Shown piece after piece: positions 1 through 64,000 of a stretch of 64,000 nucleotides of DNA. Made by a program: the position numbers and the translations under genes. Origin of the DNA: a virus; the IMG/VR virus record IMGVR_UViG_3300017991_000013, positions 5,917 through 69,916 of that record; one strand, given 5' to 3'. Below the pieces are notes generated by a model that searched no databases, was not told where the DNA came from, and saw only the letters and a list, made by a program, of their open reading frames with translations. Within the stretch, counting starts at the first letter, position 1; each line of letters opens with the position of its first letter.

Positions 1-18
1 GGGAAGACGGAGCACGAG

Positions 19-6447: not shown

Positions 6448-6745
6448 AGAGATGGCGCGGAAGCTGCTCGCGGTCTTCGAGGGTCCGCCGACCGACGAGG
6501 AGCGGGTGCTCCCCGAGGACTGGCAGGGCTACCTGCCCGCGGTCGACGCGGTGCTAGAACTGCTCCCCGCGGGGAGCAACGCAGAGGTGTACCTGCGTGC
6601 GAAGCTCCGCGAGATGGAGCAGACCTGCAAGAACCTAGAGGCGGACCTGCAATCGGAGGCGACCGCTCGGCGGGCAGCGGAACAGCGGGCGCTCGACCTG
6701 CAGGGCGACGTGAACCTGCTGCGTGGATCGGCGGGGCTGACGTGA
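6434..6745 (+). CDS. hypothetical coiled-coil protein
   Basis: AAGGAGG SD, ATG at 6434. Confidence 0.6.
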   Translation: MDLREEMARKLLAVFEGPPTDEERVLPEDWQGYLPAVDAVLELLPAGSNAEVYLRAKLREMEQTCKNLEADLQSEATARRAAEQRALDLQGDVNLLRGSAGLT

Positions 6746-6933
6746 GCGACACGCTGCCGCAGCACCTCTGCAACCGGGCGACCTCGAGGTCGGAGTACTG
6801 CTCGCGGTGTGTGCACGGGCGCCCGCACACCTACGCCCGCTGCAACTCTCGGCGGTCGTGCGCCGCTCGCCACGTGTCCTGCGCGTGCGTGGCCACCGTT
6901 CGCAACTACAAGGAGCTGGGCCGTGGCAAGTAA
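6742..6933 (+). CDS. small Cys-rich protein
   Basis: 7 Cys in 63 aa; GTGA overlap. Confidence 0.45.
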   Translation: MSDTLPQHLCNRATSRSEYCSRCVHGRPHTYARCNSRRSCAARHVSCACVATVRNYKELGRGK

Positions 6934-7132
6934 GCCCCTATATGTCGCGACCCTGCCCGAGATCGCGCCGGTCGAGGTGGACCCGAACGACGAGGACACC
7001 CTGCGGCAGCTGACCCGCGGCCTGCTGCTGGAGGATGGCCACGCACGGAACGTCGTACGACGGGTGTTGGCCAACCTACGATGCGCGGCGTACAACGAGC
7101 AGGCAACTCGTGGTCTAGGAGAATCCGAATAA
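6923..7132 (+). CDS. hypothetical protein
   Basis: GTG start after AGGAG; last gene before an AT-rich gap. Confidence 0.45.
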   Translation: MASKPLYVATLPEIAPVEVDPNDEDTLRQLTRGLLLEDGHARNVVRRVLANLRCAAYNEQATRGLGESE

Positions 7133-7260
7133 CGTTATGACTTTGTAACAGTCTACAGGTTACATTGCTATACCCAAGTATTATAATACTACTGGAGAGA
7201 AGTGTTTCCCAAAATCCGAAAGAAAAGCCTGATTTTTGAGTTCGCCTAGACTCAAAAAGG
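7133..7260 (+). promoter_or_regulatory. AT-rich promoter region upstream of the packaging/structural operon
   Basis: Sharp GC drop; TATAAT at 7182-7187 within GTATTATAA, a 9-mer also seen at 43596-43604. Confidence 0.55.
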
Positions 7261-7310
7261 CGTGTGATCGAGAGACGTGATCACGTTCTGCGAGCGAGGG
7301 ACCGCGTTCA

Positions 7311-7925
7311 TTGGCCAAGCTCCCCGAACCGAACCTGGTGCAGTACTGCACCTTCGTCAACCCCGACACGCAGGTCGCGTGCCGCAAGGTGGCGACGGAA
7401 GGGTACACTCGTTGCTGGGAGCACGGCGGCGGCAACTCCGCGTTCCGACGACCGTTGAACCCCGACGTCGCACCCGGCAAGGCGGACACGGTCAAGAAGC
7501 GTCGGGCGTCGCGCTACTCAGCGGCGTTCAAGAGCGAGACCCTGCGGACGCGGTTCGAGGAACTCCTCAATAACCCCGCCATGCTCGACCTGCGGGAAGA
7601 GCTGGCCCTCCAGCACATGATGATGGAGTCGGTGGCCGCGAAGGTGAAGGCCATCGACCTCGAGAAGATTCCGGCGGAAGCCATCGCCCTAGTCAACCAG
7701 ACCGTGGGCGAGATCAGTAAGACAACCGAAACGATAGCGAAGCTCGAAGGCAAGCTCCAGACGATCATCCGCATCGAAGACCTACGCTCGTGGACCGACG
7801 AGGTGCTCAACATCGTCGTCAAGTACATTGACGACCCTGCGAAACTGGAGTCGCTTGCCATTGATCTTAACAACGCGAGAGTCCCCGCTTCTACCGGGAG
7901 GCGTCGAGAGCCGAGCCAGGACTGA
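7311..7925 (+). CDS. terminase small subunit (putative)
   Basis: C..C..CWEHGG (HGG zinc-knuckle) N-terminus, helical body, directly upstream of TerL. Confidence 0.7.
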   Translation: MAKLPEPNLVQYCTFVNPDTQVACRKVATEGYTRCWEHGGGNSAFRRPLNPDVAPGKADTVKKRRASRYSAAFKSETLRTRFEELLNNPAMLDLREELALQHMMMESVAAKVKAIDLEKIPAEAIALVNQTVGEISKTTETIAKLEGKLQTIIRIEDLRSWTDEVLNIVVKYIDDPAKLESLAIDLNNARVPASTGRRREPSQD

Positions 7926-12558: not shown

Positions 12559-15246
12559 ATGAAGCTCGAAGACCTGACCGCCTCGAACGTCGCGGACCTA
12601 CCGACCGACGAGATCGTGTCCCTCCATCACCGCACCCACCAGCTGTGGAACCGGATGCGGTCGCCGGAGCAACGGCAGCTGTTGACCGACGCACACCGCT
12701 GGCTGGTCGAACAGATGGAGGCACGCGGGATCAAGCACACCTCCCCGCTCGGTAAGAAGGCACCCGGCTACTACGAGTCGATGATGGTGCTGCGGCGCGA
12801 CGGCGTCGTGCAGATGGGTGCCCTGATCGAGCGCGTCCCGATGGGGCGGGTGCTCGACCTCGGCGCGGGGATCGGGACCGCGGCTCGCGTGCTGGCGAAC
12901 AGCGGGCGAGAGGTCGTGTGCCTCGACCAGTCGCGGGAGGCGGTGCTCCGCTGCGGGGAGCTGGGGCTGGAGGCGGTGCAGGACGACGCGCTGGAATACC
13001 TCGCGCGGCAAGACGACGACTCCTTCGACTGCGTCTACTCGCTCCACTTCTTGGAGCACCACGAGGCGCCGGACGCCGTGCTCGAAGAGTGCGCTCGGGT
13101 CGCCAAGCAGTGCACGCTCCACGTGGTGCCGCTGGGCGAGCGGGGCGACGAGAGCCACAAGCAGAAGTGGAAGAGCATGGTCGACTTCTCCGCGGCGATC
13201 CGCTCGGTGCCCTACGCCAAGAGTTACAAGTCCCTCGTGGACGAGACCCTGCTGGTCGAGGTGCACAAGGACCTGCCGGACTTCATGGAGCGGCTGGGCG
13301 ACGCGACCGTGGTCAAGAACTTCGTGTCGGTCGTCGGCGGTACCGCCACGCGCTACGACCCGATGTCAGACCTCGACGTGTTGATCCGCCAGTCGTCAAG
13401 GGACGAGGCGCTCGAACTCGTCGTGCGGAACCAGCTCACCCAAGAGGCGCAGGACAAGCTGCACTTCATCTATCACGCCTCGGGACCGCACGGAGACAGC
13501 GTGCCGCTCTACGACCTCGTGCTGCGGCCGGCGGATCGTCTCGCGCTGGAGCGCGTGGACAAGGCGTTCGCGCCGATCACTCGCTTCCAGCCCGCCAAGC
13601 CCGGGCCGAGCTTCCTCATCGTCGACAAGGACGCCGACGACGTGAAGGCGCTGCTCGGCGCGTGGGCCGGCAAGCCGCTGGGCAAGGACCGAGAGATCGC
13701 GGTCGAGCGGAAGTACAACGGCTGGCGCGGCGTCGTGCAGTTCGATGGCAAGCGCGGGTCGGTGTTCTTCGAGGGCAACAAGCGCGAACGCATCCAGCAG
13801 TTCCCCGACCTGCTCGCGGACCTCAAGGCTATCGGCGAACCGATGATCCTCGACGTGGACTTCGGCGCGGTCGGCACCGACGGCAAGCCGCTCCCGCGGA
13901 TCGCCCTCAGTCAGTTCGCGTCGTTCAACAAGAAGTTCGGTCTCAAGTTCGACACGCCCGCGGGTCCCGCCACGCTCAAGGTCACGGGGTTCGATGTGCC
14001 CTACTTCAAGGAGGACCTGAGCGGCAAGCCCTACCACGAGCGCCGCGCCATTCTCAAGAAGGTGCTGACGTCGTCGGACCTGCGCGTGCTCGCACCGAGC
14101 GAGGGACGCGTGGTCAAGAACCCCGACGCCTTCGTGGCCGCGGTCAAGACGATGGCCGCGAGACCCGGGAGCGAGGGCGTCGTGGTGAAGAAGGTCAACG
14201 CGTCTTACCCCGCCGGCGGCTCGACGTCCGACTGGATGAAGGCCAAGAACGCCGCGGGTCTGAACATGGAAGTCATGCGCGTCAAGAAGGCGGGCGACGC
14301 CTACTCGCACACCGTCGGGCTGAAGGCCGAGGGCGGTGACCTGGTCGAGGTCGGCGGCACGATGAACCACGGGACCCGGTTCGCTCCGGGCGCGGTGGTC
14401 AAGGTCGACGTCGAGGAACTCATCCCGCTGTGGAGCGCGAAGCAGAACCGGTGGGAGGCGAGCATCGTCGTCGGCATCATCCGAGACCGCACCGAAGCGA
14501 AGAGCGCGGACTCGATGGGCACCGCGATCAAGAAGGCCGAGGGCGCGAACGTCTTGCAAGCGGGCCCGCCGATGCGGAAGCTCCTGCGCGAAGCGAAGCT
14601 GGTCAAGCAACGCGAGGAGGCGGACGACGACGAGGGCGGCTCGGGCGCGGAGGGTAACCTCGACTTCAAGGTCGGCGACTCGGGGAGCGGCGTGCTCCAG
14701 CTCCACGAGATGGGTCTCTCGGAAGAGGAAGCGAAGGAAGGGAAGAGCGGGACGTGGTCTGCCCACACCGACTTCCGACTGCGGCGCGGCGACGACGACT
14801 ACTGGGAGGGCGGCGAGTTCTTCACTCCGGGCAACAACCACAAGAAGTCGAAGCTCCTCCAAGACGGCGCCCGCATCCTCATGAACTTCAAGGTGCCGAA
14901 GAAGGAGGGCCGCTCCGGCAAGGGTCCCTTCGTCGTGCACGGTCCGCTCGGCTGGCTCAAGGTCGGCGCGCAGGGACCGAAGCTCTTGTCACCGGGGACG
15001 CCGGGCGCGTACCCCGAGACGTGGTCCCGCATTACCAAGCTCGCCTCGATCAAGTGGAAGGCTGGCACGCAGGACGAACACTACAAGGAGTTCATGTTCG
15101 AGTTCGACGGGGACCTCAAGGGTCGTAGTGGGCGCTGGGTATTCGCGTTCGCCCCGTTGGGAGACAGCCGCAAGTGGATTGCGTTCCGACCCGCCGAGCA
15201 ACGGATGGACGCGGAACGCAAGAAGGGCGAGCTGGTGGAATTCTAG
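12559..15246 (+). CDS. multidomain protein: SAM methyltransferase + nucleotidyltransferase + ATP-dependent DNA ligase + LigD phosphoesterase-like tail
   Basis: VLDLGAGIG and HFLEH; VGGTA..SDLDVL; ERKYNGWR, SEGVVVK, WMKAK; QLH..HTDFRL. Confidence 0.8.
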   Translation: MKLEDLTASNVADLPTDEIVSLHHRTHQLWNRMRSPEQRQLLTDAHRWLVEQMEARGIKHTSPLGKKAPGYYESMMVLRRDGVVQMGALIERVPMGRVLDLGAGIGTAARVLANSGREVVCLDQSREAVLRCGELGLEAVQDDALEYLARQDDDSFDCVYSLHFLEHHEAPDAVLEECARVAKQCTLHVVPLGERGDESHKQKWKSMVDFSAAIRSVPYAKSYKSLVDETLLVEVHKDLPDFMERLGDATVVKNFVSVVGGTATRYDPMSDLDVLIRQSSRDEALELVVRNQLTQEAQDKLHFIYHASGPHGDSVPLYDLVLRPADRLALERVDKAFAPITRFQPAKPGPSFLIVDKDADDVKALLGAWAGKPLGKDREIAVERKYNGWRGVVQFDGKRGSVFFEGNKRERIQQFPDLLADLKAIGEPMILDVDFGAVGTDGKPLPRIALSQFASFNKKFGLKFDTPAGPATLKVTGFDVPYFKEDLSGKPYHERRAILKKVLTSSDLRVLAPSEGRVVKNPDAFVAAVKTMAARPGSEGVVVKKVNASYPAGGSTSDWMKAKNAAGLNMEVMRVKKAGDAYSHTVGLKAEGGDLVEVGGTMNHGTRFAPGAVVKVDVEELIPLWSAKQNRWEASIVVGIIRDRTEAKSADSMGTAIKKAEGANVLQAGPPMRKLLREAKLVKQREEADDDEGGSGAEGNLDFKVGDSGSGVLQLHEMGLSEEEAKEGKSGTWSAHTDFRLRRGDDDYWEGGEFFTPGNNHKKSKLLQDGARILMNFKVPKKEGRSGKGPFVVHGPLGWLKVGAQGPKLLSPGTPGAYPETWSRITKLASIKWKAGTQDEHYKEFMFEFDGDLKGRSGRWVFAFAPLGDSRKWIAFRPAEQRMDAERKKGELVEF

Positions 15247-54831: not shown

Positions 54832-55750
54832 GGGACCAGACAGGTCGGGGAAGACTACCCTAGCAGAGAAGCTGGTGGGGAGGGGATGGCGTTCGGTTAC
54901 GCCCCTCCCCACCGCGCGTGCGCGTGCTCACGCCTTCGCGGTGTACATGGGTCAGTCGCGAAAGCCGCACGCGGTGATCGACCGAGGGTGGGTAACGGAG
55001 GTCGTGTACTCTAGGGCGCTGAGTCGCGAGCCCGCCCTCGGTTACCACCACCAGTGGTGCCTCTCGTTGGAGGCGGCTACCCACGGGTTGGTCACTCACT
55101 TCCTCGACCCGACCCTCGCGGTGCTCGAACGCCGCTGGGTAGAACAGCCGAACGTAACGCGAGAGCAGTGGTTGAGGGTGATCGACGAGTACCGCAAGTG
55201 GCTGGACGAGGAGGCGTGGTTCTGGCACGGCTACCTGCACCAAGTGGTCAAGGTGACCGAGCCCGACCTCAGCGACATGTCCGAGAGCGCCGAGGCAATG
55301 GAGGCTGTTTCGGAAGAGGCGCACCTGCGCGAGTCTTGGGGCGCGCCCGTTCCGAAGCTGCTTCTAGTGGGAGAGCGTCCGAACCCCAACAAGGTGTGCG
55401 CGAACGCGAACTACGTTAGGCCGCTCATGCCGCGCAACGCTGGGGAGGGCGGGGCTTACCTCTTTCGAGCGTTGGGGTCAGTGGGCCTCTGCCCTCACGA
55501 GGTCCACCTCTGCAACGCCTACCGCTCAGATAGCCAGCCCGAGAAGGTGCGACACCTGTGGGAGAAGCTGATGCGGCCGCCGATCGTCACGCTCGGCAAG
55601 GTAGCCGACGAGGCGTTGCTGGACCGAGACCTACCGCACGGCGCGGTAGATCACCCGCAGTACAAGCGCCGCTTCGAGTCGGGGCTGGAAGAACTCTACG
55701 GACTGGAGATAATGGATGCTGGTAACCTCAATCGAACAACTTCCAACTGA
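54815..55750 (+). CDS. dNMP kinase fused to a uracil-DNA-glycosylase-like domain
   Basis: LEGPDRSGKTT and IDR...TEVVYS; LLVGERP, LCNA, IVTLGKVA and HP. Confidence 0.8.
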   Translation: MSILLEGPDRSGKTTLAEKLVGRGWRSVTPLPTARARAHAFAVYMGQSRKPHAVIDRGWVTEVVYSRALSREPALGYHHQWCLSLEAATHGLVTHFLDPTLAVLERRWVEQPNVTREQWLRVIDEYRKWLDEEAWFWHGYLHQVVKVTEPDLSDMSESAEAMEAVSEEAHLRESWGAPVPKLLLVGERPNPNKVCANANYVRPLMPRNAGEGGAYLFRALGSVGLCPHEVHLCNAYRSDSQPEKVRHLWEKLMRPPIVTLGKVADEALLDRDLPHGAVDHPQYKRRFESGLEELYGLEIMDAGNLNRTTSN

Positions 55751-57671
55751 CCTGCCAGAGTTCGTGCTCGACGTTGAGACCACGTCGTTCGACGACAAGC
55801 TCCCAGCCTTCAACCCGTGGGAGGGCTGCCGGATCGCAGGGATCGCGCTCGGCACACTCGAAGGTGACCACACGTGGTACATCCCCTATCGCCACCACTC
55901 GGGCGCTCAGAACGCGAGCGAAGAGAACCTGCCCCTCGAACCGGTACAGCGCTGGCTCCGCGACCTCTTCAAGAAGGCGGAGCGATACGTCAACCACAAC
56001 ATCAAGTTCGACCAGCGGTTCATCCACTTCGAGGGCGCCGACGTGTTCGCGCCGAAGCGCAACGAGTGTACGATGGCGCTGGCGCGGCTGGTGCACAACG
56101 ACCTGCCGCAGTACTCGCTGGAGTTCCTCGGTCAGAAGTATTGCGGCGAGGGCAAGGCACCGCTGGCCATCAAGGCCTACTTGAAGTCGATCAAGTCCAA
56201 GGACTTCGGGCGGGTGCCGCCGCGAGTGATGGGCAAGTACGCCGAGCAGGACGCGCGGCTCACCGCACTGCTGCGGCTCAAGCTCTTGGAGAAGCTGCCG
56301 TCGTGCTCGCTACCGATGTGGGACATCGAGTGCGCGGCGACCACCGAGCTGTTGCGGAACGAGATCGAGGGTGTTCGCCTCGACGTGACGCTGATGAAGA
56401 CCACGCAGCTTCGTATCCTGCGGCGGCTGCTCGAACTTAACTCAGCCATCAACGAGATAGCCGGACGAGAGATCGACCCGGGCAAGGAGTCGGAACTGAC
56501 GGCGTTCCTCATCGGCGACCTCGGCATCGAGCCCAAGGCGTACACCGCCACGGGCCTGCCGCAGTGGAACAAGATGGCGTTCGTTCAGATGGAACACCCC
56601 GTCGGTCCGCTGCTCGCGGAGTACACCACGCTGATCCATCACATGCACACCTTCTTAGAGGGCTGGCTCAAGCGGACGCACGAGGGATTCCTTCACCCAG
56701 ACTGGCGGCAAGCGGGCACCAAGACCGGGCGACTGTCCAGCAAGAACCCGAACATGCAGAACATCCCGCCGGAGGCTGAGGTCTACCTGCTGCCCTACAA
56801 CGACGACGACGTAATCATCACCTTCGATTACTCGCAGATCGAGTACCGCATCTTCGGGCACTACACGCAAGAGCCCGCGATCATGGACGCGTACCTCAAG
56901 AACAAGGACACCGACTTCCATGGGATGCTCGCCGACATCTTGGGCGTCGAGCGGCAGTTTGCGAAGTCCCTCAACTTCGCCTTCATCTATGGGATGGGCG
57001 AGAAGAAACTGCTGGACTCGTTGGCGGGGTTGCTGTCCATTCGAGCGGACGACGAGAACCTTAAGGAAAAGCTCCGCGCGTATACGTACGCCTCGACCCT
57101 CAAGATCGCGGAACGCGCCAAGCAGTTAGACCTCTCCGACTTCTTGCAGATCGCCAAGAACATCTACAACGAGTACCACAAGAAGTTTCCGTCGATCAAG
57201 AAGTTCTCACGGGCGGTCTATGGCGCGGGGCGTCGACGCGGCTGGGTACGCAACCTGCTGGGCAGGGTCTACCAGGTTCCGAGGGTCGCCCCGCACAAGG
57301 CTGTGAACTGGCTGATCCAAGGGTCAGCGGCCGACGTCTTCAAGGAGCGCCTGTTCGTGGGCACCCTGCCAGACGTGCGGGCGAAGTTCGGTGCGCGGAT
57401 GATCGCGAACGTTCACGACGAGATAGCGTTCTCGGTACCGCGTGAAGCGGCGGTCGAGTTCTACGACTACGCGGAACGGTCGCTGGAGGATTTTGAGTTG
57501 CGGATTCCGCTCTACGTTTCGGGCAAGGCTTCCGGGGCTTCTTGGGGACACTCGGTAAAGGTGAACGGTTCTGAGGAAATCGAGGTCGCCGTGAAGAAGT
57601 CACGGGAGATCGACGGCCCCACGGTCTTCGAGCTGGAGAAGGGCGTGACGAACATCGCAGCGGTATCATAA
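55716..57671 (+). CDS. polA: family A DNA polymerase with 3'-5' exonuclease
   Basis: DVETT, HNIKFD, YA.QDA; TGRLSS..PNMQN, DYSQIE, AK..NF...YG, IQGSAAD and VHDE. Confidence 0.95.
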   Translation: MLVTSIEQLPTDLPEFVLDVETTSFDDKLPAFNPWEGCRIAGIALGTLEGDHTWYIPYRHHSGAQNASEENLPLEPVQRWLRDLFKKAERYVNHNIKFDQRFIHFEGADVFAPKRNECTMALARLVHNDLPQYSLEFLGQKYCGEGKAPLAIKAYLKSIKSKDFGRVPPRVMGKYAEQDARLTALLRLKLLEKLPSCSLPMWDIECAATTELLRNEIEGVRLDVTLMKTTQLRILRRLLELNSAINEIAGREIDPGKESELTAFLIGDLGIEPKAYTATGLPQWNKMAFVQMEHPVGPLLAEYTTLIHHMHTFLEGWLKRTHEGFLHPDWRQAGTKTGRLSSKNPNMQNIPPEAEVYLLPYNDDDVIITFDYSQIEYRIFGHYTQEPAIMDAYLKNKDTDFHGMLADILGVERQFAKSLNFAFIYGMGEKKLLDSLAGLLSIRADDENLKEKLRAYTYASTLKIAERAKQLDLSDFLQIAKNIYNEYHKKFPSIKKFSRAVYGAGRRRGWVRNLLGRVYQVPRVAPHKAVNWLIQGSAADVFKERLFVGTLPDVRAKFGARMIANVHDEIAFSVPREAAVEFYDYAERSLEDFELRIPLYVSGKASGASWGHSVKVNGSEEIEVAVKKSREIDGPTVFELEKGVTNIAAVS

Positions 57672-57794
57672 TGAATAGCGCAGGCGACCCCGTTCCGCCG
57701 CAATGCCGCAGAAGCACGCGAGTACATCGTTCCTGAAAGTGCCGCTAGGATGCCGAATTCGGCTACTCTACCAGGATGGAATACTTCAAAATCG

Positions 57795-57867
57795 CCCTAA
57801 GTCTCACGCTTTCAATGACTTAGGGAGCGAAAATAAAGTTTACTTTGGGGGCTCCATCGATTAGGAT
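57795..57867 (+). promoter_or_regulatory. sigma70-like promoter with upstream inverted repeat
   Basis: TTTACT (57839-44), 17-bp spacer, TAGGAT (57862-67); A-rich UP-like tract; IR CCCTAAGTC-13-GACTTAGGG. Confidence 0.6.
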
Positions 57868-57873
57868 AGAGGT

Positions 57874-58204
57874 GTACCACAGATCGAAGAGCCAAGAACG
57901 AAGGCGAACCGAGGGCGCCCGCACCAAGACCCTCGACCGCGGGACGGAGGGACGGCCCCGCAGCTCCGACCGGTTCGAGTCCGGCGAGCCCAAGGCGAAC
58001 CCTCCCAGCCCGTTAGTCGCGCCTTGACAATTCGAGCCGCAGGAGCCACCCCAGCGGAGGGTAATACTCGGCGCAACGTCGAGACCTCGGGGCACGCATC
58101 TTCAGTGCTAGAGGGATAGTACGCTGGACACGACTCCGGAGTTGGATCGGGTAAGCCTAGCCCGACCTTCACGCAAGGCGGCCAAGATAGCTAGTCCTCA
58201 AACA
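57874..58204 (+). ncRNA. candidate structured RNA/leader, unassigned
   Basis: No convincing ORF; many hairpins, a T-loop-like arm and a possible pseudoknot. Confidence 0.4.
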
Positions 58205-58279
58205 GCCGAAAGCGTGGCGAGAGATCGCCGCGCTTGTCCGCGGGAACCCACCCGCCGCGGGCCTGATGAGGCAGGGTGG
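58205..58279 (+). ncRNA. hammerhead ribozyme 1 (type II)
   Basis: GCC-GAAA, stem III GCGTGGCGA/TCGCCGCGC, CUU cut after 58235, stem I GTCCGCGG/CCGCGGGC, CTGATGA-GGC, pseudoknot CCACCC/GGGTGG. Confidence 0.9.
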
Positions 58280-58319
58280 AACTTTGGGGCACGGCGCCCC
58301 GCAACAGGAGGACAGCAAG

Positions 58320-58637
58320 ATGGCGAAGAACAAGAAGAGCACCAGCAAGGGCACCACCAAGAAGGCCGCCACCAAGAAGGCCGCGCCGGTCGACCACACC
58401 GAGACGGTTGCCAAGAAGTTCCAGGCAGTCGTCGCCGAGGTGTACGGAGCCGACGTTCCCGACAAGATCGTGGTGCGGGTGAACAAGCTCGCGGCCTCGA
58501 TCCAGAAGGGAATCCAGAGCGCGGTCCGGAAGGCCGAGCGCGAGGCGAACAAGGGTGCCAAGCTCGCGGCCAAGAAGGAGAAGCTCGCGGCCAAGATCGC
58601 CAAGCTCCAGGCACAGATCGAAAAGCTCAACGACTAG
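58320..58637 (+). CDS. Lys/Ala-rich small protein with C-terminal coiled coil
   Basis: AGGAGGACAGCA SD; ends KIAKLQAQIEKL. Confidence 0.8.
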   Translation: MAKNKKSTSKGTTKKAATKKAAPVDHTETVAKKFQAVVAEVYGADVPDKIVVRVNKLAASIQKGIQSAVRKAEREANKGAKLAAKKEKLAAKIAKLQAQIEKLND

Positions 58638-58642
58638 CACGA

Positions 58643-58707
58643 GCCGAAACCCCGCCTCGCGGCGGGGTCTCTGCGGGCTACCCTCCCGCGGACTGATGAG
58701 GCAGGGT
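58643..58707 (+). ncRNA. hammerhead ribozyme 2 (type II)
   Basis: GCC-GAAA, CCCCGCC/GGCGGGG, GUC cut after 58669, TCTGCGGG/CCCGCGGA, CTGATGA-GGC, ACCCT/AGGGT. Confidence 0.93.
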
Positions 58708-58730
58708 GAAAGGGAAAAGGAGGACAGCAG

Positions 58731-59030
58731 ATGGCAGGTACGTTGAAGTCGTACGAGGCCGAAGAGCGGAACAGCAAGAAGCGGATAAGGTCCGCGGAGT
58801 TCCTGCTCTTCGCCCAGTCGCACGAACTCGAACAGCTCGAACGACAGCTGGCCGAACTGCCCCGGCGGATCAAGGCCCTTCAGGGCAAGGTCGCCGCGGG
58901 GCGGGAGAAGCTGGCGAAGTACGAGCGCTTCCACAAGAAGCAGTTCGGCGACCCGCGCCAGAAGGAAGTGCTCAAGATGAAGGAGCAGCTGGAGCGGTTG
59001 AAGCGGGACCTACGTCGGTTGGAGAGCTAG
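58731..59030 (+). CDS. small coiled-coil protein
   Basis: Conserved SD cassette; 99 aa. Confidence 0.75.
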   Translation: MAGTLKSYEAEERNSKKRIRSAEFLLFAQSHELEQLERQLAELPRRIKALQGKVAAGREKLAKYERFHKKQFGDPRQKEVLKMKEQLERLKRDLRRLES

Positions 59031-59101
59031 TGCCGAAACCCCGCCCGCGTGGCGGGGTCGCCCCGGGGACATCCCCTCCCGGGGCCTGATGAGGCAGGGG
59101 A
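59031..59101 (+). ncRNA. hammerhead ribozyme 3 (type II)
   Basis: TGCC-GAAA, CCCCGCC/GGCGGGG, GUC cut after 59059, GCCCCGGG/CCCGGGGC, CTGATGA-GGCA, TCCCCT/AGGGGA. Confidence 0.93.
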
Positions 59102-59119
59102 CCAACAGGAGGACGGCAG

Positions 59120-59245
59120 ATGGACGAGCACTACAAAGCGTACGAGGAGTACGTGATGGGCCTGCGCCCGTGGGACGCCGAGGTTGCGGCGTACTACAAG
59201 GCGTGGCGCGAGTCGCACCTCTCGAAGTGGGAGGCGACCCGATGA
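59120..59245 (+). CDS. 41-aa protein (below the ORF-track cutoff)
   Basis: AGGAGGAC SD; MDEHYKAYEEYVMGLRPWDAEVAAYYKAWRESHLSKWEATR. Confidence 0.7.
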   Translation: MDEHYKAYEEYVMGLRPWDAEVAAYYKAWRESHLSKWEATR

Positions 59246-59478
59246 CTGTGCGCGAACTGATGGAGGTGCTTCGGGACTACGACCCCGAGGCAGAGGTGCG
59301 GGTCGCGCAAGACTCGCACGACCACTGGCGGACGACCCTCGCCCGCCCGCTCGACACCGTGTCGAACCAGCTCGTGGTTTTCTCGCGGTACCACGAATTC
59401 GACGTCGTGGTCGACGAGGACGACGAGGACGCGGTCGACGGCACGAACGCGGTGATCCTGAGCCACGGGGCTCTCTAG
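59242..59478 (+). CDS. small acidic phage protein (MTV.EL.E.L..YDP.AEV family)
   Basis: ATGA overlap; common phage N-terminal motif. Confidence 0.75.
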   Translation: MTVRELMEVLRDYDPEAEVRVAQDSHDHWRTTLARPLDTVSNQLVVFSRYHEFDVVVDEDDEDAVDGTNAVILSHGAL

Positions 59479-59542
59479 CCGAAACCGCCCTTCGGGGCGG
59501 TCGTCCCGGGTTACCCTCCCGGGGCCTGATGAGGCAGGGTAA
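59478..59542 (+). ncRNA. hammerhead ribozyme 4 (type II)
   Basis: GCC-GAAA, CCGCCC-TTCG-GGGCGG, GUC cut after 59502, GTCCCGGG/CCCGGGGC, CTGATGA-GGC, TTACCCT/AGGGTAA. Confidence 0.95.
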
Positions 59543-59562
59543 GGGAATAGGAGGACAGCAAG

Positions 59563-59892
59563 ATGAGTAGACGCATGACCAAGGTGGAGTTCCACTACTG
59601 CGGAGTCTTCATGGTGAAGGTCGATCAGGCGATTAACCTGTGGGACCTCTTCACCCTGAGCGACGACGTACACCGGGCTCGGGTCCACCTGCTCTGTGAC
59701 TCGGACCTGAAGATCCTGCACGAAGCGGGCATCTCGGCCCGCGACATCTGTTGGCTGGTCAGCAGAACCGGCACATCGTTCCAAGCGGTGGAGTTCTTCC
59801 GCACCGCGCACCAGCTCGGCGACGACGTCCCCGCATGGACCGACGAGATTTACCACGCGAGGGGCGAGGCGCTCGCCGGACTGAATCCGTAG
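59563..59892 (+). CDS. hypothetical protein
   Basis: Conserved SD cassette. Confidence 0.7.
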   Translation: MSRRMTKVEFHYCGVFMVKVDQAINLWDLFTLSDDVHRARVHLLCDSDLKILHEAGISARDICWLVSRTGTSFQAVEFFRTAHQLGDDVPAWTDEIYHARGEALAGLNP

Positions 59893-59896
59893 CACA

Positions 59897-59962
59897 GCCG
59901 AAACCGCCCTTCGGGGCGGTCTCCGCGAGACCCACCCTCTCGTGGACTGATGAGGCAGGGTG
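59897..59962 (+). ncRNA. hammerhead ribozyme 5 (type II)
   Basis: GCC-GAAA, CCGCCC-TTCG-GGGCGG, GUC cut after 59921, TCCGCGAG/CTCGTGGA, CTGATGA-GGC, CACCCT/AGGGTG. Confidence 0.95.
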
Positions 59963-59979
59963 AACGATAGGAGGACAGC

Positions 59980-60189
59980 ATGTACACGAGCACGAACTTC
60001 AAGACGAAGAAGGCTCTCAAGGAAGCGGTCGCCGCCGGAGAAGAGGTGCGGGTCTACCAGCCCGGCCCGATCGGAGGCGCGCCGCCCCGCGACGGAGTCG
60101 TCTGCGTCGAGGGTCCGCACTACCCGAAGCCGCACCGCTGGTACGCGCAGGTCACCCTCAAGGATGGCAAGGTCGTCAAGGTCAGCTAG
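59980..60189 (+). CDS. conserved small phage protein (NFKTKKALKEAV..EGPHYP.PH.WYA)
   Basis: Conserved SD cassette; 69 aa. Confidence 0.8.
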   Translation: MYTSTNFKTKKALKEAVAAGEEVRVYQPGPIGGAPPRDGVVCVEGPHYPKPHRWYAQVTLKDGKVVKVS

Positions 60190-60259
60190 CCGAAACCGCC
60201 CCGACCACTGGGGCGGTCTGCCGCGTGGGGCCCACCCGCGGCACTGATGAGGCAAGGGC
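60189..60259 (+). ncRNA. hammerhead ribozyme 6 (type II)
   Basis: GCC-GAAA, CCGCCCC/GGGGCGG, GUC cut after 60218, TGCCGCG/CGCGGCA, CTGATGA-GGC, GCCC/GGGC. Confidence 0.9.
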
Positions 60260-60341
60260 AGGGGAGAGTGGTCGCGTGACCACGCCCCGTCGTTTTAGGT
60301 CGCGCCCCTCGGCTGGGGTGCTTTGTTCAAAGGAGGCAGAG

Positions 60342-60638
60342 ATGCCCGAGAACAAGAAGGGACAGCAGAAGGTGGAGAAGAAGGCAGAGGGTCCGAAGGA
60401 GATTCCCGCGTTCAAGGACGAGGAAGGCAAGCTCGTCAAGCTGAGTGCGAAGAACTTCCCCAAGACCAAGGAAGGCCGCATGGCCTTCTGCGACTACCAG
60501 GTCCTGCGCTGGACCGCCAAGAAGGACCGCATCTCCAAGGCGGGCGACCCCAAGCAGAAGAAGCTGGCCAAGATCGAGAAGATGAAGGCCATGATCGCCA
60601 AGCTGGAGAAGGAACTCGGCGGCGACGACTCCGAGTAA
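60342..60638 (+). CDS. Lys-rich small protein with C-terminal coiled coil
   Basis: AAGGAGG SD; ends KIEKMKAMIAKLEKEL. Confidence 0.8.
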   Translation: MPENKKGQQKVEKKAEGPKEIPAFKDEEGKLVKLSAKNFPKTKEGRMAFCDYQVLRWTAKKDRISKAGDPKQKKLAKIEKMKAMIAKLEKELGGDDSE

Positions 60639-60652
60639 CCGACCACCTTCGA

Positions 60653-60729
60653 GCCGAAACCCGGGGCACCCAGGAACACGCCCCGGGTCTTCGCGGGGTT
60701 ACCCCTCCCGCGGACTGACGAGGCAGGGG
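60653..60729 (+). ncRNA. hammerhead ribozyme 7 (type II)
   Basis: GCC-GAAA, CCCGGGGC/GCCCCGGG, GUC cut after 60689, TTCGCGGG/CCCGCGGA, CTGACGA-GGC, CCCCT/AGGGG. Confidence 0.92.
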
Positions 60730-60756
60730 AAACGAGGGAACAGAGGAGGACAGCAG

Positions 60757-61275
60757 ATGAAAGACGCCTACACGATAGAGGAGGTGGAGGCCGAGGTGCA
60801 GAAGTGGCACGCTCGGATCGTTCGCCTGCTCCCGCCGGTGCTCGGGCCCCGACCCCACGGTCGCCGCCGTACCAAGCTCTACAGCTTGGGCGACGACATC
60901 GAGGTCAGGTTCACGGGAACGAGACCGCGGCGGAAGATCGCCCACGGTGGGCAGCGCGGCGTGTGCTTCAACTTCTGGTACATGCGCGCGGTGCCGAGGG
61001 ACGTGTATCATCACACCGTGGTCCACGAGGTGTGCCACACCATCGCGTGCCGCATCGAGCCATGCGAGTCTCACGGCACCCTGTGGGAGTTCATCATGCG
61101 GATAGCGGGATACCAGCCCAGCCGCACCGCGAACTACTCGCAGTTCAGCCCGAGAGCAGAACAGCAGGATGAGACCTCGCGACGGATGTGGAAGCTGTAC
61201 CAGCTACGGCAGAAGCTGGCGAAGCTCGAAGAGGTAGAACGCGTAGCCGCAGAGACCCTGCCCGACGACGAGTAA
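60757..61275 (+). CDS. SprT-like zinc metalloprotease
   Basis: TVVHEVCH (HExxH) and HG..W..IM...G..P.R. Confidence 0.8.
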   Translation: MKDAYTIEEVEAEVQKWHARIVRLLPPVLGPRPHGRRRTKLYSLGDDIEVRFTGTRPRRKIAHGGQRGVCFNFWYMRAVPRDVYHHTVVHEVCHTIACRIEPCESHGTLWEFIMRIAGYQPSRTANYSQFSPRAEQQDETSRRMWKLYQLRQKLAKLEEVERVAAETLPDDE

Positions 61276-61312
61276 CTACGTCGTCGTCCTCCATAGGGGC
61301 TTGGTAGCCCCA

Positions 61313-61384
61313 GCCGAAAGGGCCCCGCTGTCCGGGGCCCTCGTTCCGAGACTCACCCTCTCGGAGCCTGATGAGGCAGGGTGA
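61313..61384 (+). ncRNA. hammerhead ribozyme 8 (type II)
   Basis: GCC-GAAA, GGGCCCCG/CGGGGCCC, CUC cut after 61342, GTTCCGAG/CTCGGAGC, CTGATGA-GGC, TCACCCT/AGGGTGA. Confidence 0.92.
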
Positions 61385-61403
61385 TGGAGAAGAGGAGGAC
61401 AGC

Positions 61404-62099
61404 ATGGACAGAATGAGAGTGATGGGGGAGCGGGCCCGACGTGGGAAACCGCGCCAGCCGATCACGCTGGAGAAGGGCGACGTCGTCTACATCGAGGACG
61501 TGCGCTCACACCACAAGCGCCAGCGCGTCGGGTTCTGCGACGGGGCAGAGGTGCTCCGCGAGTGGCGGCTCGGGTTCGAGAAGCCGCACGGCGGGTACCG
61601 CACCCACTGGCTCAACGCCGAGTGCCTCGTGATCGCCGACACTCCGGTGGACCGCAGCTACAAGTGCAAGGTCCACGTCGGGCAGGAGGTGCTCGTGGAC
61701 AAGCTCCGCTTCACGATCGAGCAGCCCGGGCCGATGGGCGGCGACAGCGCGAAGCTGGTGCCCGTGGTGACCCGCACCGTGTGCGTGTCCTGCGGCAAGC
61801 TCAAGAACTGCACCGACGCCCGCAACCCGTGGGACCCGGCGCACGACGACGTCGAGCCCTGCCCGTGGTGCTCGACCTGCCTGCGGGCAGAGCGGCGCAA
61901 GGTCGTCGAGCAGTCGGACCACTACCAGGTAGCCGACAAGCGGTCGCTCCGCGACGTCGCGGAGAAGAGGGAGCGGAAGTTCTACGGGTACAAGTTCCAA
62001 GCGAGGGGCACGCGCGAGGCCACCGAGTACGCGCTCGCGCACTACCGCTACGAGATGCGGCGGAACTGCATCGTGGTCAAGGTCGAGGCTGACGACTAG
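61404..62099 (+). CDS. hypothetical protein with zinc-binding Cys cluster
   Basis: Conserved SD cassette; CVSC..C..CPWCSTC. Confidence 0.7.
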   Translation: MDRMRVMGERARRGKPRQPITLEKGDVVYIEDVRSHHKRQRVGFCDGAEVLREWRLGFEKPHGGYRTHWLNAECLVIADTPVDRSYKCKVHVGQEVLVDKLRFTIEQPGPMGGDSAKLVPVVTRTVCVSCGKLKNCTDARNPWDPAHDDVEPCPWCSTCLRAERRKVVEQSDHYQVADKRSLRDVAEKRERKFYGYKFQARGTREATEYALAHYRYEMRRNCIVVKVEADD

Positions 62100-62206
62100 C
62101 CGAAATCGGTGGGTGAAAGCGTAGTCGGATACCGGCGCGCGGCACGCGAGTAGCCCACTGATAGTTCGGGGAACTCACCCTCCCCGAGCCTGATGAGGCA
62201 GGGTGA
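62099..62206 (+). ncRNA. hammerhead ribozyme 9 (type II, extended stem III)
   Basis: GCC-GAAA, TCGGTGGGT/GCCCACTGA around a 38-nt insert, AUA cut after 62163, GTTCGGGG/CCCCGAGC, CTGATGA-GGC, TCACCCT/AGGGTGA. Confidence 0.9.
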
Positions 62207-62223
62207 AAGAAAAGGAGGACAGC

Positions 62224-62556
62224 ATGTCAGAGGACAAGTTGCGTAAGGCGGCGGCACGGTTCCGTGCCCTCGTTGCGCGGAAGGAGAAGGTCGACTCCGA
62301 GCTTAAGGACCTGAAGGCCAAGCTCGCGGCCGCGATCCCCGCCCACGAGGAGCGGTTCGGCGTACGGCACGACGTGGCCAACACGCTGATCGTGGACAAC
62401 CGTCTGGAGAAGGCGCTCGACAAGCTCGGTCTGGGCAAGCAGGCGACCGCGACCAAGGTGTCCGTCACCAAGGTCAAGGCGCTGGCCAAGATCGACACGC
62501 GGGTACCCAAGGTGATGCGCTTCCGCAAGTCGGACCGCATCCTCGTCGTGTCCTGA
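62224..62556 (+). CDS. basic coiled-coil protein
   Basis: Conserved SD cassette. Confidence 0.75.
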   Translation: MSEDKLRKAAARFRALVARKEKVDSELKDLKAKLAAAIPAHEERFGVRHDVANTLIVDNRLEKALDKLGLGKQATATKVSVTKVKALAKIDTRVPKVMRFRKSDRILVVS

Positions 62557-63032
62557 TGAGGGCCACCAAGATGGAGTACCACGGGGACGGGTGTGGGGCC
62601 TTCGGGCCCGGGGTGCACCAGGGCGACTACGAGCGGTTCGCACGCATGGCCGCGAACGTCCTGCAGGCCAGCCCCGCGTTGGAGTTGATCCTCGAACCGG
62701 GCGACGCGACACGCTACGAGCTGGCGGTGGTACACACTGAAGAGGGACTGGTAGTCTCAAAGCTCAACGATGAGTCCCTGTGCTTCCGGGTCTACAACCC
62801 GTGGTGCCAGATGTACCAGGTACGCGAGCAGGTTCGGTACAACCCGAGAACGCAATTCCCGAACCCGCACACCATGTGCGTGATGCTCCAGCTGTGCCGC
62901 GACCTGATCGCCTACCTCGCGGGCTCTCAGCCGTCGGCCGACCCGGTCTTCGACTGGTCGGAGTACCGCGCGTACCCCGAGGGTAAGAAGCACACCGAGA
63001 CCCAGCGGGACCTGGCGAGGGAACAGGAGTAG
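62556..63032 (+). CDS. hypothetical protein
   Basis: TGATG overlap; EPGDATRYEL motif. Confidence 0.65.
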   Translation: MRATKMEYHGDGCGAFGPGVHQGDYERFARMAANVLQASPALELILEPGDATRYELAVVHTEEGLVVSKLNDESLCFRVYNPWCQMYQVREQVRYNPRTQFPNPHTMCVMLQLCRDLIAYLAGSQPSADPVFDWSEYRAYPEGKKHTETQRDLAREQE

Positions 63033-63038
63033 CGAGCG

Positions 63039-63073
63039 AAGGGGCCGTCTTTCGGGGCGGCCCCTTTTCTTTT
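63039..63073 (+). terminator. intrinsic terminator
   Basis: AAGGGGCCGTCT-TTCG-GGGCGGCCCCTT hairpin followed by TTCTTTT. Confidence 0.9.
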
Positions 63074-63164
63074 GCTAATAGTGGAGAGACCGTACGAGCG
63101 CGCTTCAACGTCGGGTGAGCGCGACCCGATCTTACAACCCGACAGCAGAGGAAGGAGAGGTACG

Positions 63165-63437
63165 ATGGCAGAGGCACTGGCACTGAAGAAGGGCGAGGTC
63201 AAGGACATCAGCGAACTGATGGTCGCGGCCGCGGGTCTGGAGAAGGCGCCCGAGGGTTTCGTGGACGAGGTGGAGACCGCGACCACGAAGCTCCTCAAGA
63301 AGCTGGGCAAGACCGTCGCCAAGGCGGAGCGCGAGGCCAAGAAGGCGGAGAAGAAGGCCGCCAAGGTCGAGAAGCTCAAGGCCCAGATGGAGAAGCTCAA
63401 CGCCGCTCTGGCCGAGCTGGCCTCCGACGAAGAGTAG
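63165..63437 (+). CDS. Lys/Ala-rich small protein with C-terminal coiled coil
   Basis: V.KAEREA.K and KVEKLKAQMEKL, similar to 58320..58637. Confidence 0.8.
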   Translation: MAEALALKKGEVKDISELMVAAAGLEKAPEGFVDEVETATTKLLKKLGKTVAKAEREAKKAEKKAAKVEKLKAQMEKLNAALAELASDEE

Positions 63438-63443
63438 CACCGA

Positions 63444-63505
63444 ACCGAAACCGCCCTCCGGGGCGGTCGTCCTCGGGTTCCGCCGAGGGCCTGACGAGGT
63501 AGGAG
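63444..63505 (+). ncRNA. hammerhead ribozyme 10 (type II)
   Basis: ACC-GAAA, CCGCCC-TCCG-GGGCGG, GUC cut after 63468, GTCCTCGG/CCGAGGGC, CTGACGA-GGT (compensatory stem II). Confidence 0.9.
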
Positions 63506-63512
63506 GTGTTAG

Positions 63513-63650
63513 ATGGCTTGCGAGATATGCGGAGGTAGCCACGACCTAGCGATGTGCGACGCCTGCGGGAAGATCGTGTGCGCGGAGCACCGCGTGCTGG
63601 TGATCGAATCCTACGAGGTGCTGTGCGACGCCTGTAACAAGAAGAGGTAA
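63513..63650 (+). CDS. 45-aa zinc-finger protein (below the ORF-track cutoff)
   Basis: AGGAGGT SD; MACEICGGSHDLAMCDACGKIVCAEHRVLVIESYEVLCDACNKKR. Confidence 0.7.
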   Translation: MACEICGGSHDLAMCDACGKIVCAEHRVLVIESYEVLCDACNKKR

Positions 63651-63659
63651 CACGCTTTC

Positions 63660-63971
63660 GTGCTGACGAAGAAGGACTGGAGGAACTACGCGCGGCAGCT
63701 GGACGAGCTGTACGACGGCGACGTCGATGGCCCGCCCCGCCTGCACTGCGCGTGGCAACTCATGACCGACGACTCACTCGTAGAACTAGACGACGAGTTG
63801 TTCGAGCGTCGACCGAACTACATCACAGCCGCGGTCTGTCTACTCGACCGACACTGCGAGCACCCCGACACGGAGGCGCTCGCCGCGGAGTTGAAGGATC
63901 GGACCTTCAAGTCAGAGGAGGAGTTTCAAGAGTGGGCGACCGAGCGATACCCGGAGGCCGCCTCCTCGTAG
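63660..63971 (+). CDS. hypothetical protein
   Basis: GTG start; GAGG upstream. Confidence 0.55.
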   Translation: MLTKKDWRNYARQLDELYDGDVDGPPRLHCAWQLMTDDSLVELDDELFERRPNYITAAVCLLDRHCEHPDTEALAAELKDRTFKSEEEFQEWATERYPEAASS

Positions 63972-64000
63972 TGCCGCCGTCGGCTCGCTGTTGGGTCAAC

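What the first reader, a model, noticed from the sequence alone, without database searches (positions are those of the whole stretch)
58205..63505. Array of ten type II hammerhead ribozymes punctuating a phage small-gene operon
Seen: nearly every intergenic gap here reads GCC-GAAA-[stem III hairpin]-UH-[stem I hairpin]-CUGA(U/C)GA-GGC-purine tail, followed by a strong SD (usually AGGAGGACAGCA). Core bases are invariant while stems differ in sequence but stay paired. Stem II covaries (GCC/GGC versus ACC/GGT in copy 10). The stem I loop covaries with the 3' tail (TTACCCT/AGGGTAA, TCCCCT/AGGGGA, TCACCCT/AGGGTGA, CCACCC/GGGTGG). Predicted cuts fall after 58235, 58669, 59059, 59502, 59921, 60218, 60689, 61342, 62163 and 63468. 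Established: this is the hammerhead consensus in type II topology, and hammerheads are known in phage and metagenomic DNA. Inference: a protein-free way to cut a polycistronic (probably early) transcript into gene-sized mRNAs, analogous to RNase III sites in the T7 early operon. Ten copies interleaved with unrelated ORFs appears unusual to me; novelty was not checked.
Basis: partly seen in the sequence, partly recalled or inferred. Interest (0 to 1): 0.95.

Follow-up and report, generated by a model that had tools for sequence, protein, structure and literature searches.

The report
Ten-hammerhead ribozyme array in phage operon
An uncultured 70-kb phage places ten well-formed self-cutting hammerhead RNAs between its small genes, probably chopping one long transcript into single-gene messages; this layout has been known in phages since 2011, and this is a large, regular example of it.

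Summary
Rfam RF02276 finds all ten: seven above its cut-off and three below at 34.9, 27.4 and 17.7 bits. None lies elsewhere in the 69.9-kb genome or on the other strand, and shuffles give 0.035. Stems I and III pair in every copy despite sequence differences.

The reading as protein-free cutting of a polycistronic transcript is reasonable but untested. It is the reading already published for clustered prophage hammerheads (Perreault 2011, PMC3088659).

Ten copies is not exceptional. Other IMG/VR phage records that I scanned hold 11, 8 and 7 type II hammerheads, also fused to lineage-specific ribosome-binding leaders. This scan has already noted many such arrays on other DNA.

No RNA run holds the sequence, so cleavage could not be checked.

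Verdict: real, tidy, a new member of a known kind; modest interest.

The parts
57672..58203 (+). ORF-free leader between the DNA polymerase gene and HH1, with a low-GC patch (45% at 57800-57899) that probably holds the promoter. HH1 would cut this leader off gene 1.
   Evidence: ORF list; GC profile. The fold is not unusual: z -1.07. The promoter scan gave only one weak sigma-70-like site, at 57645-57672. ARAGORN found no tRNA.
58204..58280 (+). HH1, type II hammerhead, cut after 58235 (H17 = U)
   Evidence: RF02276 27.4 bits, below cut-off; parse: stem III 10 bp, stem I 8 bp; pseudoknot GGGUGG/CCACCC, 6 bp
58320..58637 (+). g1, 105 aa, Lys-rich with a C-terminal coiled-coil-like tail; paralog of g7 and g12
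   Evidence: Translation; blastp g1-g12 42% over 57 aa, E 2e-10; no Pfam match above cut-off
58642..58710 (+). HH2, cut after 58669
   Evidence: RF02276 42.8 bits; parse
58731..59030 (+). g2, 99 aa, coiled-coil ORFan
59031..59103 (+). HH3, cut after 59059
   Evidence: RF02276 42.4 bits; pseudoknot AGGGGA/UCCCCU
59120..59478 (+). g3 (41 aa, 59120-59245) and g4 (78 aa, 59242-59478), joined by an ATGA overlap with no ribozyme between them
59477..59543 (+). HH4, cut after 59502; the stop codon of g4 overlaps the first base of stem II
   Evidence: RF02276 50.1 bits; pseudoknot AGGGUAA/UUACCCU, 7 bp; spacing
59563..59892 (+). g5, 109 aa ORFan
59896..59964 (+). HH5, cut after 59921
   Evidence: RF02276 41.8 bits
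59980..60189 (+). g6, 69 aa ORFan
60188..60261 (+). HH6, cut after 60218; atypical tail, pseudoknot only 4 bp. It is followed by two hairpins, one terminator-like (60302-60321 plus TTTGTT), before g7.
   Evidence: RF02276 43.6 bits
60342..60638 (+). g7, 98 aa, paralog of g1/g12; has a homolog downstream of the polymerase in the nearest relative, L011
   Evidence: tblastn 51% over 75 aa, E 8e-21
60652..60732 (+). HH7, cut after 60689 (CUGACGA core)
   Evidence: RF02276 38.0 bits
60757..61275 (+). g8, 172 aa, SprT-like zinc metalloprotease fold (HEVCH)
   Evidence: PF10263 E 4.1e-7, 30.3 bits against cut-off 25.6
61312..61385 (+). HH8, cut after 61342
   Evidence: RF02276 34.9 bits, below cut-off; pseudoknot 7 bp
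61404..62099 (+). g9, 231 aa, Cys-rich ORFan
62098..62207 (+). HH9, cut after 62163 (H17 = A); 38-nt insertion in the stem III loop
   Evidence: RF02276 17.7 bits, E 0.021; parse: stem III 10 bp, stem I 9 bp; pseudoknot 7 bp
62224..63032 (+). g10 (110 aa, 62224-62556) and g11 (158 aa, 62556-63032), overlapping by one base, with no ribozyme between them
63038..63075 (+). Intrinsic-terminator-like hairpin (13 pairs) with a T-run; the only long gap in the stretch without a hammerhead
63165..63437 (+). g12, 90 aa, paralog of g1/g7
   Evidence: start read from the sequence
63443..63508 (+). HH10, cut after 63468. Stem II is ACC/GGU. The 3' tail is itself the SD (AGGAGG), 13 nt from the core end to the ATG. 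Pseudoknot potential is only 4 bp.
   Evidence: RF02276 45.4 bits
63513..63971 (+). g13 (45 aa, four CxxC-type Cys pairs) and g14 (103 aa). + strand genes then continue over the record's end into genome positions 1-7400 without ribozymes.
   Evidence: GC3 test of strand; no Rfam hit at E<=1 in genome 1-7500

Best explanation
These are ten functional type II hammerhead ribozymes. They are transcribed as part of one or a few + strand polycistronic RNAs that start in the low-GC gap after the DNA polymerase gene.

As each copy is made it folds into stems III and I as hairpins, a 3-bp stem II, and a loop I/3'-tail pseudoknot. It then cuts itself after H17. This splits the transcript into pieces of 434, 390, 443, 419, 297, 471, 653, 821 and 1305 nt, each carrying one or two genes.

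Each upstream piece keeps its stop codon, because the cut lies 24-67 nt behind it. It ends in the stable stem III hairpin with a 2',3'-cyclic phosphate. Each downstream piece begins with a 5'-OH on the stem I hairpin, followed by a nearly constant leader and a strong SD. The 5' UTR is 58-61 nt in 6 of 10 copies.

The likely benefit is that every small gene gets the same context-independent translation start and its own protected ends. Expression and decay of neighbouring genes would then be uncoupled without any host or phage nuclease.

What is shown: the motifs, their pairing, their placement and their strandedness. What is inferred: transcription as one unit, cleavage in vivo, and the benefit.
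For: - Rfam RF02276 matches all ten copies, 7 of them above the cut-off.
- All ten lie on the coding strand and none elsewhere; 0.035 are expected by chance.
- My own descriptor finds 10 of 10 on +, 0 on -, and 0 in 1.18 Mb of shuffled loci.
- The core is complete in all ten and the cut sites are consistent.
- Stems I and III are 100% paired with several pair types; 0 of 2000 permutations reach this.
- Stem II shows a compensatory change in HH10.
- The pseudoknot is at least 5 bp in 8 of 10 copies.
- The MFE fold gives the three-way junction in 6 of 10 copies and stem III in 10 of 10.
- Spacing to the stop codon and to the SD/ATG is regular.
- Junctions without a ribozyme are overlapping, translationally coupled genes or a terminator.
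- The same hammerhead-plus-leader layout appears in five other IMG/VR phage stretches.
- Published tests: triple prophage arrangements cleave in vitro and in E. coli, and pseudoknot mutants lose activity (PMC3088659, passages). Three type II hammerheads of Desulfovibrio vulgaris cleave in vivo (PMC8782182, abstract and passages).
Against: - There are no RNA data for this phage, so neither co-transcription nor cleavage is shown.
- Three copies score below the Rfam cut-off.
- HH6 and HH10 have only 4-bp pseudoknots, and Perreault 2011 report about 20-fold slower cleavage when 6 bp are cut to 4.
- In 4 of 10 copies (HH1, 5, 7, 9) the nested MFE fold pairs the tail with the 3' arm of stem I instead of forming stem I.
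- Predicted SD accessibility rises after cleavage in only 6 of 10 copies (mean 0.58 against 0.45), which is inconclusive.
- The nearest polymerase relatives lack Rfam hammerheads (0 of 5 records), so the array is not essential to this type of phage.
- A terminator at 63038 and a terminator-like hairpin at 60302 suggest more than one transcription unit.
Confidence: 0.75

Rival explanations
1. Re-joining instead of simple cutting. Each released piece carries the 3' half of one hammerhead at its 5' end and the 5' half of the next at its 3' end. The two ends could rebuild a complete hammerhead and be ligated, either by the reverse reaction or by a host RtcB-type ligase. The result would be circular or shuffled mRNAs.
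For: Stem II is GCC/GGC in HH1-HH9, so halves from different copies are compatible for 8 of 9 pieces. The pseudoknot partners both lie on the same (3') half. Perreault 2011 raise this possibility. A sibling note on this genome raises it too.
Against: After cleavage the two products of a type II hammerhead are held together only by the 3-bp stem II. This favours release and makes it unlikely that ends 300-1300 nt apart find each other (inference). Perreault 2011 looked for spliced or circular products and found none (data not shown in the paper). Another array (L128) mixes several stem II types, so interchangeability is not a general rule. The HH9-HH10 piece would have an A.C mismatch and contains a terminator.
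Confidence: 0.05
2. Graded or regulated cleavage. The copies are deliberately unequal, differing in pseudoknot length, H17 identity, the stem III insertion in HH9 and the SD-as-tail in HH10. They would then cut at different rates or under different conditions and set the relative amounts and timing of the gene products.
For: Rfam scores range from 50.1 down to 17.7 bits. Pseudoknots range from 4 to 7 bp. In HH10 the pseudoknot partner is the SD itself. Perreault 2011 suggest that slower phage variants may be conditionally active.
Against: The variation is also what neutral drift among paralogous copies would give. No ligand-binding or switch element is evident. Rfam finds no riboswitch or other family in the region at E<=10 other than chance-level hits.
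Confidence: 0.1
3. Cassette boundaries. The ribozyme plus SD unit is chiefly a portable junction that travels with, or recruits, small accessory genes by recombination. RNA cutting would make each acquired gene expressible wherever it lands.
For: HH4, HH5 and HH10 share an identical stem III, as do HH2 and HH3, and the leader is near-identical in 8 copies, while the genes between are mostly unrelated ORFans. The g7 homolog in relative L011 sits in a small-gene block with no Rfam hammerhead. Other phages have their own homogenised unit.
Against: No cassette was seen to have moved with its ribozyme: none of the 14 array proteins other than g7 hits any of the 143 other loci held. Repeat homogeneity can arise by gene conversion within one genome. 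This reading adds to the processing function rather than replacing it.
Confidence: 0.08
4. The motifs are chance look-alikes or dead relics with no activity.
For: Three copies fall below the Rfam cut-off, and no cleavage data exist.
Against: 0.035 are expected by chance against 10 seen, all on the coding strand and all intergenic. All core positions are intact and every stem position is paired.
Confidence: 0.02

Closest known systems
Type II hammerhead ribozyme with loop I/3'-tail pseudoknot (Rfam RF02276; Perreault et al. 2011, PMC3088659)
   Same: The core, the topology (stems I and III capped, stem II open and short), and a Watson-Crick pseudoknot between loop I and the bases right after stem II are the same. 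Seven copies pass the curated score.
   Different: Nothing essential differs. HH9 has a 38-nt stem III loop. HH10 uses the SD as its tail. HH6 and HH10 have only 4-bp pseudoknots.
Clustered hammerheads flanking single genes or short gene blocks in prophages (Perreault et al. 2011, Figure 3 text; De la Pena 2017 review, PMC6155905)
   Same: Several ribozymes lie on the coding strand between small, non-conserved phage ORFs. The same inference was drawn there, of processing into single-gene or operon-length mRNAs.
   Different: The tested published cases are triples. Here there are ten in 5.3 kb of a complete free-phage genome, with a near-constant SD leader fused to each copy. My searches of the held library found no paper describing arrays of ten or more. 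Supplements were closed and could list some.
Other hammerhead arrays in uncultured phages
   Same: There are 11, 8 and 7 RF02276 matches on one strand within 2.4-5 kb. Each copy is followed by a lineage-specific SD leader.
   Different: The lineages are unrelated, with no shared array proteins. Stem II sequences differ. G013's copies have 3-nt stem I loops, so they lack a pseudoknot.
RNase III processing sites of the T7 early operon (recalled knowledge, not tested here)
   Same: It works alike: intergenic RNA structures cut a polycistronic early transcript into gene-sized mRNAs that keep a 3' hairpin.
   Different: The T7 sites need the host enzyme RNase III and leave 5'-phosphate and 3'-OH ends. 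Here the RNA cuts itself and leaves 5'-OH and a 2',3'-cyclic phosphate. This array is not a member of that class.
Synthetic ribozyme insulators such as RiboJ (recalled knowledge, not tested here)
   Same: A hammerhead placed before the RBS removes variable upstream RNA, so the gene gets a standard 5' UTR that starts with a hairpin.
   Different: RiboJ is an engineered device from a satellite-RNA hammerhead of a different topology. The natural array also defines the 3' end of the gene in front.

Membership tests
Hammerhead ribozyme, type II (RF02276) | Conserved catalytic core: CUGANGA, GAAA, the A15.1-U16.1 pair, and H17 not G | tested here: met
   Met in 10 of 10 copies: CUGAUGA in 8, CUGACGA in 2; GAAA in 10; A-U in 10; H17 is C in 8, U in 1, A in 1
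Hammerhead ribozyme, type II (RF02276) | Three-helix junction with stems I and III closed by loops and stem II open | tested here: met
   Met in 10 of 10 copies: stem III 8-10 bp, stem I 7-9 bp, stem II 3 bp; 100% pairing and 0 of 2000 permutations as good; the MFE fold shows the full junction in 6 of 10
Hammerhead ribozyme, type II (RF02276) | Covariance-model score at or above the curated cut-off (37 bits) | tested here: inconclusive
   7 of 10 are above (38.0-50.1 bits). 3 of 10 are below (34.9 and 27.4; 17.7). The low scores go with long stem III loops and non-consensus stem III bases, not with core changes.
Hammerhead ribozyme, type II (RF02276) | Pseudoknot of four or more pairs between loop I and the bases just after stem II | tested here: met
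   10 of 10 have at least 4 bp and 8 of 10 at least 5 bp. Covariation occurs at two positions. The own-versus-cross difference is modest, 5.8 against 5.0 bp.
Hammerhead ribozyme, type II (RF02276) | Site-specific self-cleavage giving 5'-OH and 2',3'-cyclic phosphate | not testable with these tools
   No run on record as RNA is listed for this sequence; a bench assay is needed
Clustered phage/prophage hammerheads (Perreault 2011) | Several hammerheads close together, on the coding strand, flanking single genes or short gene blocks of a phage | tested here: met
   Ten lie in 5.3 kb, with one or two genes between successive copies. The phage identity comes from tape measure, primase, helicase and polymerase matches and an IMG/VR record with terminal repeats.
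RNase III-type processing sites (T7 early operon) | Long imperfect double-stranded hairpin cut by host RNase III | not tested
   Considered only as a functional analogy, not as a membership claim

The most novel reading that the evidence does not exclude
The pieces released by the array are not end products. Every piece carries two compatible hammerhead halves and the chemistry-ready ends (5'-OH and 2',3'-cyclic phosphate). They could therefore be re-joined, by the ribozyme's reverse reaction or by a host RtcB-type ligase, into circular or re-ordered phage mRNAs that resist exonucleases.
Probability: 0.05. Interest if true: 0.85.

Novelty: new member of a known kind. Interest (0 to 1): 0.3.

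Why it matters
The biological role of bacterial and phage hammerheads is still called an open question in the reviews I read (PMC6765202; PMC6155905). A complete phage genome with ten regular copies, predicted fragment sizes and a constant leader is a convenient test bed. It could show whether ribozyme punctuation sets mRNA boundaries, stability and translation independently for each small gene. It does not by itself change what is known. The layout was described in 2011, and arrays of similar or larger size turn up in other uncultured phages.

Tried and rejected
- **RNA evidence.** The look-up of sequencing runs listed no RNA holder. Three DNA runs hold the stretch and may be its source.
- **Conservation in relatives.** The five records with the best polymerase matches (26-44% identity) have 0 of 5 RF02276 matches at E<=0.1. 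The exact 17-nt core-plus-tail motif has no other match in viral contigs. So no orthologous array was available for between-genome covariation.
- **Other RNA families.** Nothing else passes the gathering threshold in the window. There is nothing at E<=1 in genome 1-7500 or in relative L011. ARAGORN found no tRNA or tmRNA, despite a T-arm-like CCGG-TTCGAGT-CCGG at 57970-57984.
- **Leader as a structured RNA.** The fold z-score is -1.07. There was no similarity to L011 or to any held locus by blastn or nhmmer. Not supported here.
- **SD unmasking by cleavage.** Inconclusive.
- **MAFFT alignment A1.** It misaligns stem III because loop lengths vary, so I counted pairs from my own structural parse instead of using count of structure pairs or a new covariance model.
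- **Protein functions.** 9 of the 10 proteins searched have no Pfam match above the curated cut-off and no PHROG of known function; the exception is SprT-like g8.
- **Survey caveat.** The loose pattern is mostly noise. 95 of the 127 loci L027-L153 gave no descriptor hit.

Full report
**What is there.** The window is bases 5917-69916 of a 69,916-bp IMG/VR virus record with direct terminal repeats, rated complete. The repeat is 123 bp exact and GC is 63.6%. PHROG matches to tape measure protein, primase/helicase, helicase and DNA polymerase show a tailed phage. The finding lies just downstream of the DNA polymerase gene (55716-57671), after a 533-nt ORF-free gap.

**Checking the observation.**
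- Rfam at gathering threshold finds seven matches in the whole window. All are Hammerhead_II (RF02276), on the + strand, and between 58642 and 63508.
- With a relaxed threshold two more appear, at 61312-61385 (34.9 bits) and 58204-58280 (27.4 bits).
- The whole-genome search adds 62098-62207 (17.7 bits, E 0.021), giving exactly ten matches at E<=1.
- A plain core regex finds the same ten, none on the minus strand and none elsewhere in the genome. In 200 dinucleotide-preserving shuffles the mean was 0.035.
- A stricter descriptor of my own (core, 2-bp stem II, A-U closed stem III of at least 4 bp, H17, stem I of at least 5 bp) again finds 10 of 10 on +, 0 on -, and 0 in 1.18 Mb of shuffled loci.

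**Structure.**
- Across the ten copies, stem III positions 1-8 and stem I positions 1-7 are paired in every copy, although most positions show two or three pair types. None of 2000 permutations of 3' arms among copies reaches this.
- Stem II is GCC/GGC nine times and ACC/GGU in HH10, a compensatory change.
- Because most tails share AGGG, own-tail pairing beats cross-copy pairing only modestly, 5.8 against 5.0 bp.
- Nested MFE folding gives stem III in 10 of 10 copies and the whole three-way junction in 6 of 10. In HH1, 5, 7 and 9 the tail displaces stem I, which is what a program that cannot draw pseudoknots may do. Z-scores run from -1.05 to -3.07.

**Layout.**
- Between the leader and g14 there are 14 junctions. 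Ten hold a hammerhead, two are overlapping stop/start codons (g3/g4 and g10/g11), one holds a strong terminator-like hairpin (63038-63075) and one is a 9-nt gap.
- The stop codon of the gene in front lies from -1 to 37 nt before stem II. It overlaps the first base of stem II in HH4, HH6 and HH9.
- The cut is 24-67 nt behind the stop, so each upstream piece keeps its stop codon.
- After the cut the 5' UTR is 58-61 nt in six copies; the full set is 84, 61, 60, 60, 58, 123, 67, 61, 60 and 44 nt.
- The leader AGGAGGACAGCA is exact after seven copies and has one mismatch after HH3.
- In HH10 the tail after stem II is the SD itself.
- Pieces between cuts would be 434, 390, 443, 419, 297, 471, 653, 821 and 1305 nt.

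**The genes.**
- They are small and mostly without family. g8 is SprT-like (PF10263, E 4e-7). The rest give nothing above the Pfam cut-offs and only PHROGs of unknown function.
- g1, g7 and g12 are paralogs: Lys-rich with a coiled-coil-like tail.
- A GC3 test shows that + strand genes continue past the record's end into genome 1-7400. They are mostly overlapping and carry no Rfam match.
- The hammerheads therefore punctuate only the first 5.3 kb of a longer small-gene block.
- GC falls to 45% at 57800-57899, the lowest value among the 100-nt windows profiled across 56500-64000. This fits a promoter upstream of HH1, but that is inference, as is the label 'early'.

**How it most likely works.**
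- The RNA cuts itself at each copy as it is transcribed.
- The upstream product ends in the stem III hairpin with a 2',3'-cyclic phosphate.
- The downstream product starts with a 5'-OH on the stem I hairpin and carries a standard leader and SD.
- In a type II hammerhead with a 3-bp stem II the two products are held together by those three pairs only. Release should therefore be fast and re-ligation poor (inference).
- The expected result is gene-sized mRNAs with context-independent translation starts and structured ends. It resembles RNase III processing of T7 early RNA and synthetic ribozyme insulators; both comparisons are recalled, not tested.
- I tested one prediction in silico, that cleavage frees the SD. 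The result was inconclusive: mean unpaired probability 0.58 cleaved against 0.45 uncleaved, higher in 6 of 10 copies.

**What is known.**
- Perreault et al. 2011 (PMC3088659; passages read) described type II hammerheads and the loop I/3'-tail pseudoknot. [quoted passage not shown]
- In the same paper three tandem arrangements (one from A. tumefaciens called a triple) cleaved in vitro and one in E. coli. Circular or spliced products were sought and not detected.
- The De la Pena 2017 review (PMC6155905, passages) says hammerheads are often close together, flanking small non-conserved ORFs, with a persistent phage link.
- PMC6765202 (passages) calls the function unresolved.
- PMC8782182 (abstract and passages) showed in vivo cleavage of three type II hammerheads in Desulfovibrio vulgaris.
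- Five searches of the held library found no paper describing arrays of ten or more. Supplements were closed and may list some.

**How unusual is ten?**
- Records reached by two loose DNA patterns gave RF02276 counts of 3, 1, 2, 7, 1, 2 and 1 and 11, 8, 4 and 4.
- One 67.6-kb phage (G013) has 11 on one strand within 5 kb.
- In these arrays each copy is also followed by a lineage-specific SD leader.
- The scan's own index holds 263 notes in at least 216 genomes with these words. They include arrays reported at 9, 10, 12, 22 and 'up to about 25' copies. I did not verify those.
- The nearest polymerase relatives (at most 44% identity) have no Rfam hammerhead (0 of 5 records), although the closest one has a g7 homolog in its own small-gene block. 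The array is therefore a lineage-specific acquisition.

**Rivals.**
- Re-joining into circles or shuffled mRNAs is topologically possible, because stem II is interchangeable in HH1-9. It is disfavoured by the 3-bp hold, by the published negative result and by mixed stem II types in another array.
- Graded cleavage and cassette-boundary readings are compatible with the data and would add to the processing function rather than replace it.
- Chance or dead relics are excluded as far as sequence can tell.

**Verdict.** This is a new member of a known kind. It is a clean example that is useful for experiments, but not a surprise to a specialist.

Noticed in passing
L011:12975-13045 (nearest polymerase relative): By eye, the gap after a small gene reads GAAA, a 6-bp A-U closed hairpin, UA, a 4-bp hairpin, then CUGAUGA. 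It has a 5-bp loop/tail pairing (GGGCU/AGCCC) but U.U at the 10.1-11.1 position. It may be a variant hammerhead that Rfam does not score: there was no hit at E<=1.
   Followed up: partly
window 58320-58637, 60342-60638, 63165-63437: Three small Lys-rich proteins with a similar coiled-coil-like C-terminus (g1, g7, g12) are paralogs spread through the array. g7 has a homolog in relative L011.
   Followed up: partly
window 12559-15246: An 895-aa protein in the head-gene region combines a class I methyltransferase domain (residues about 95-185) with an ATP-dependent ligase domain (378-563). I saw no link to the ribozyme ends.
   Followed up: partly
genome 4025-4264 (outside the window, 1891 bases before its start): An eighth exact copy of the leader AGGAGGACAGCA precedes a 75-aa + strand ORF with no hammerhead in front, so the leader also occurs without the ribozyme.
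   Followed up: partly
window 57970-57984: A tRNA T-arm-like CCGG-TTCGAGT-CCGG sits in the leader before HH1. ARAGORN and Rfam find no tRNA or tRNA-like family there, and the 533-nt leader does not fold unusually well (z -1.07).
   Followed up: partly
window 60262-60341: Between HH6 and g7 lie two extra hairpins, the second terminator-like (60302-60321 plus TTTGTT). This gives g7 a 123-nt 5' UTR, unlike the 58-67 nt of most other copies. It may be an attenuator or a sub-operon boundary.
   Followed up: no
window 62553-62562: CTGATGAGGG inside the g10/g11 overlap is a chance core-like word with no GAAA or stem partner. It is not an eleventh ribozyme.
   Followed up: yes
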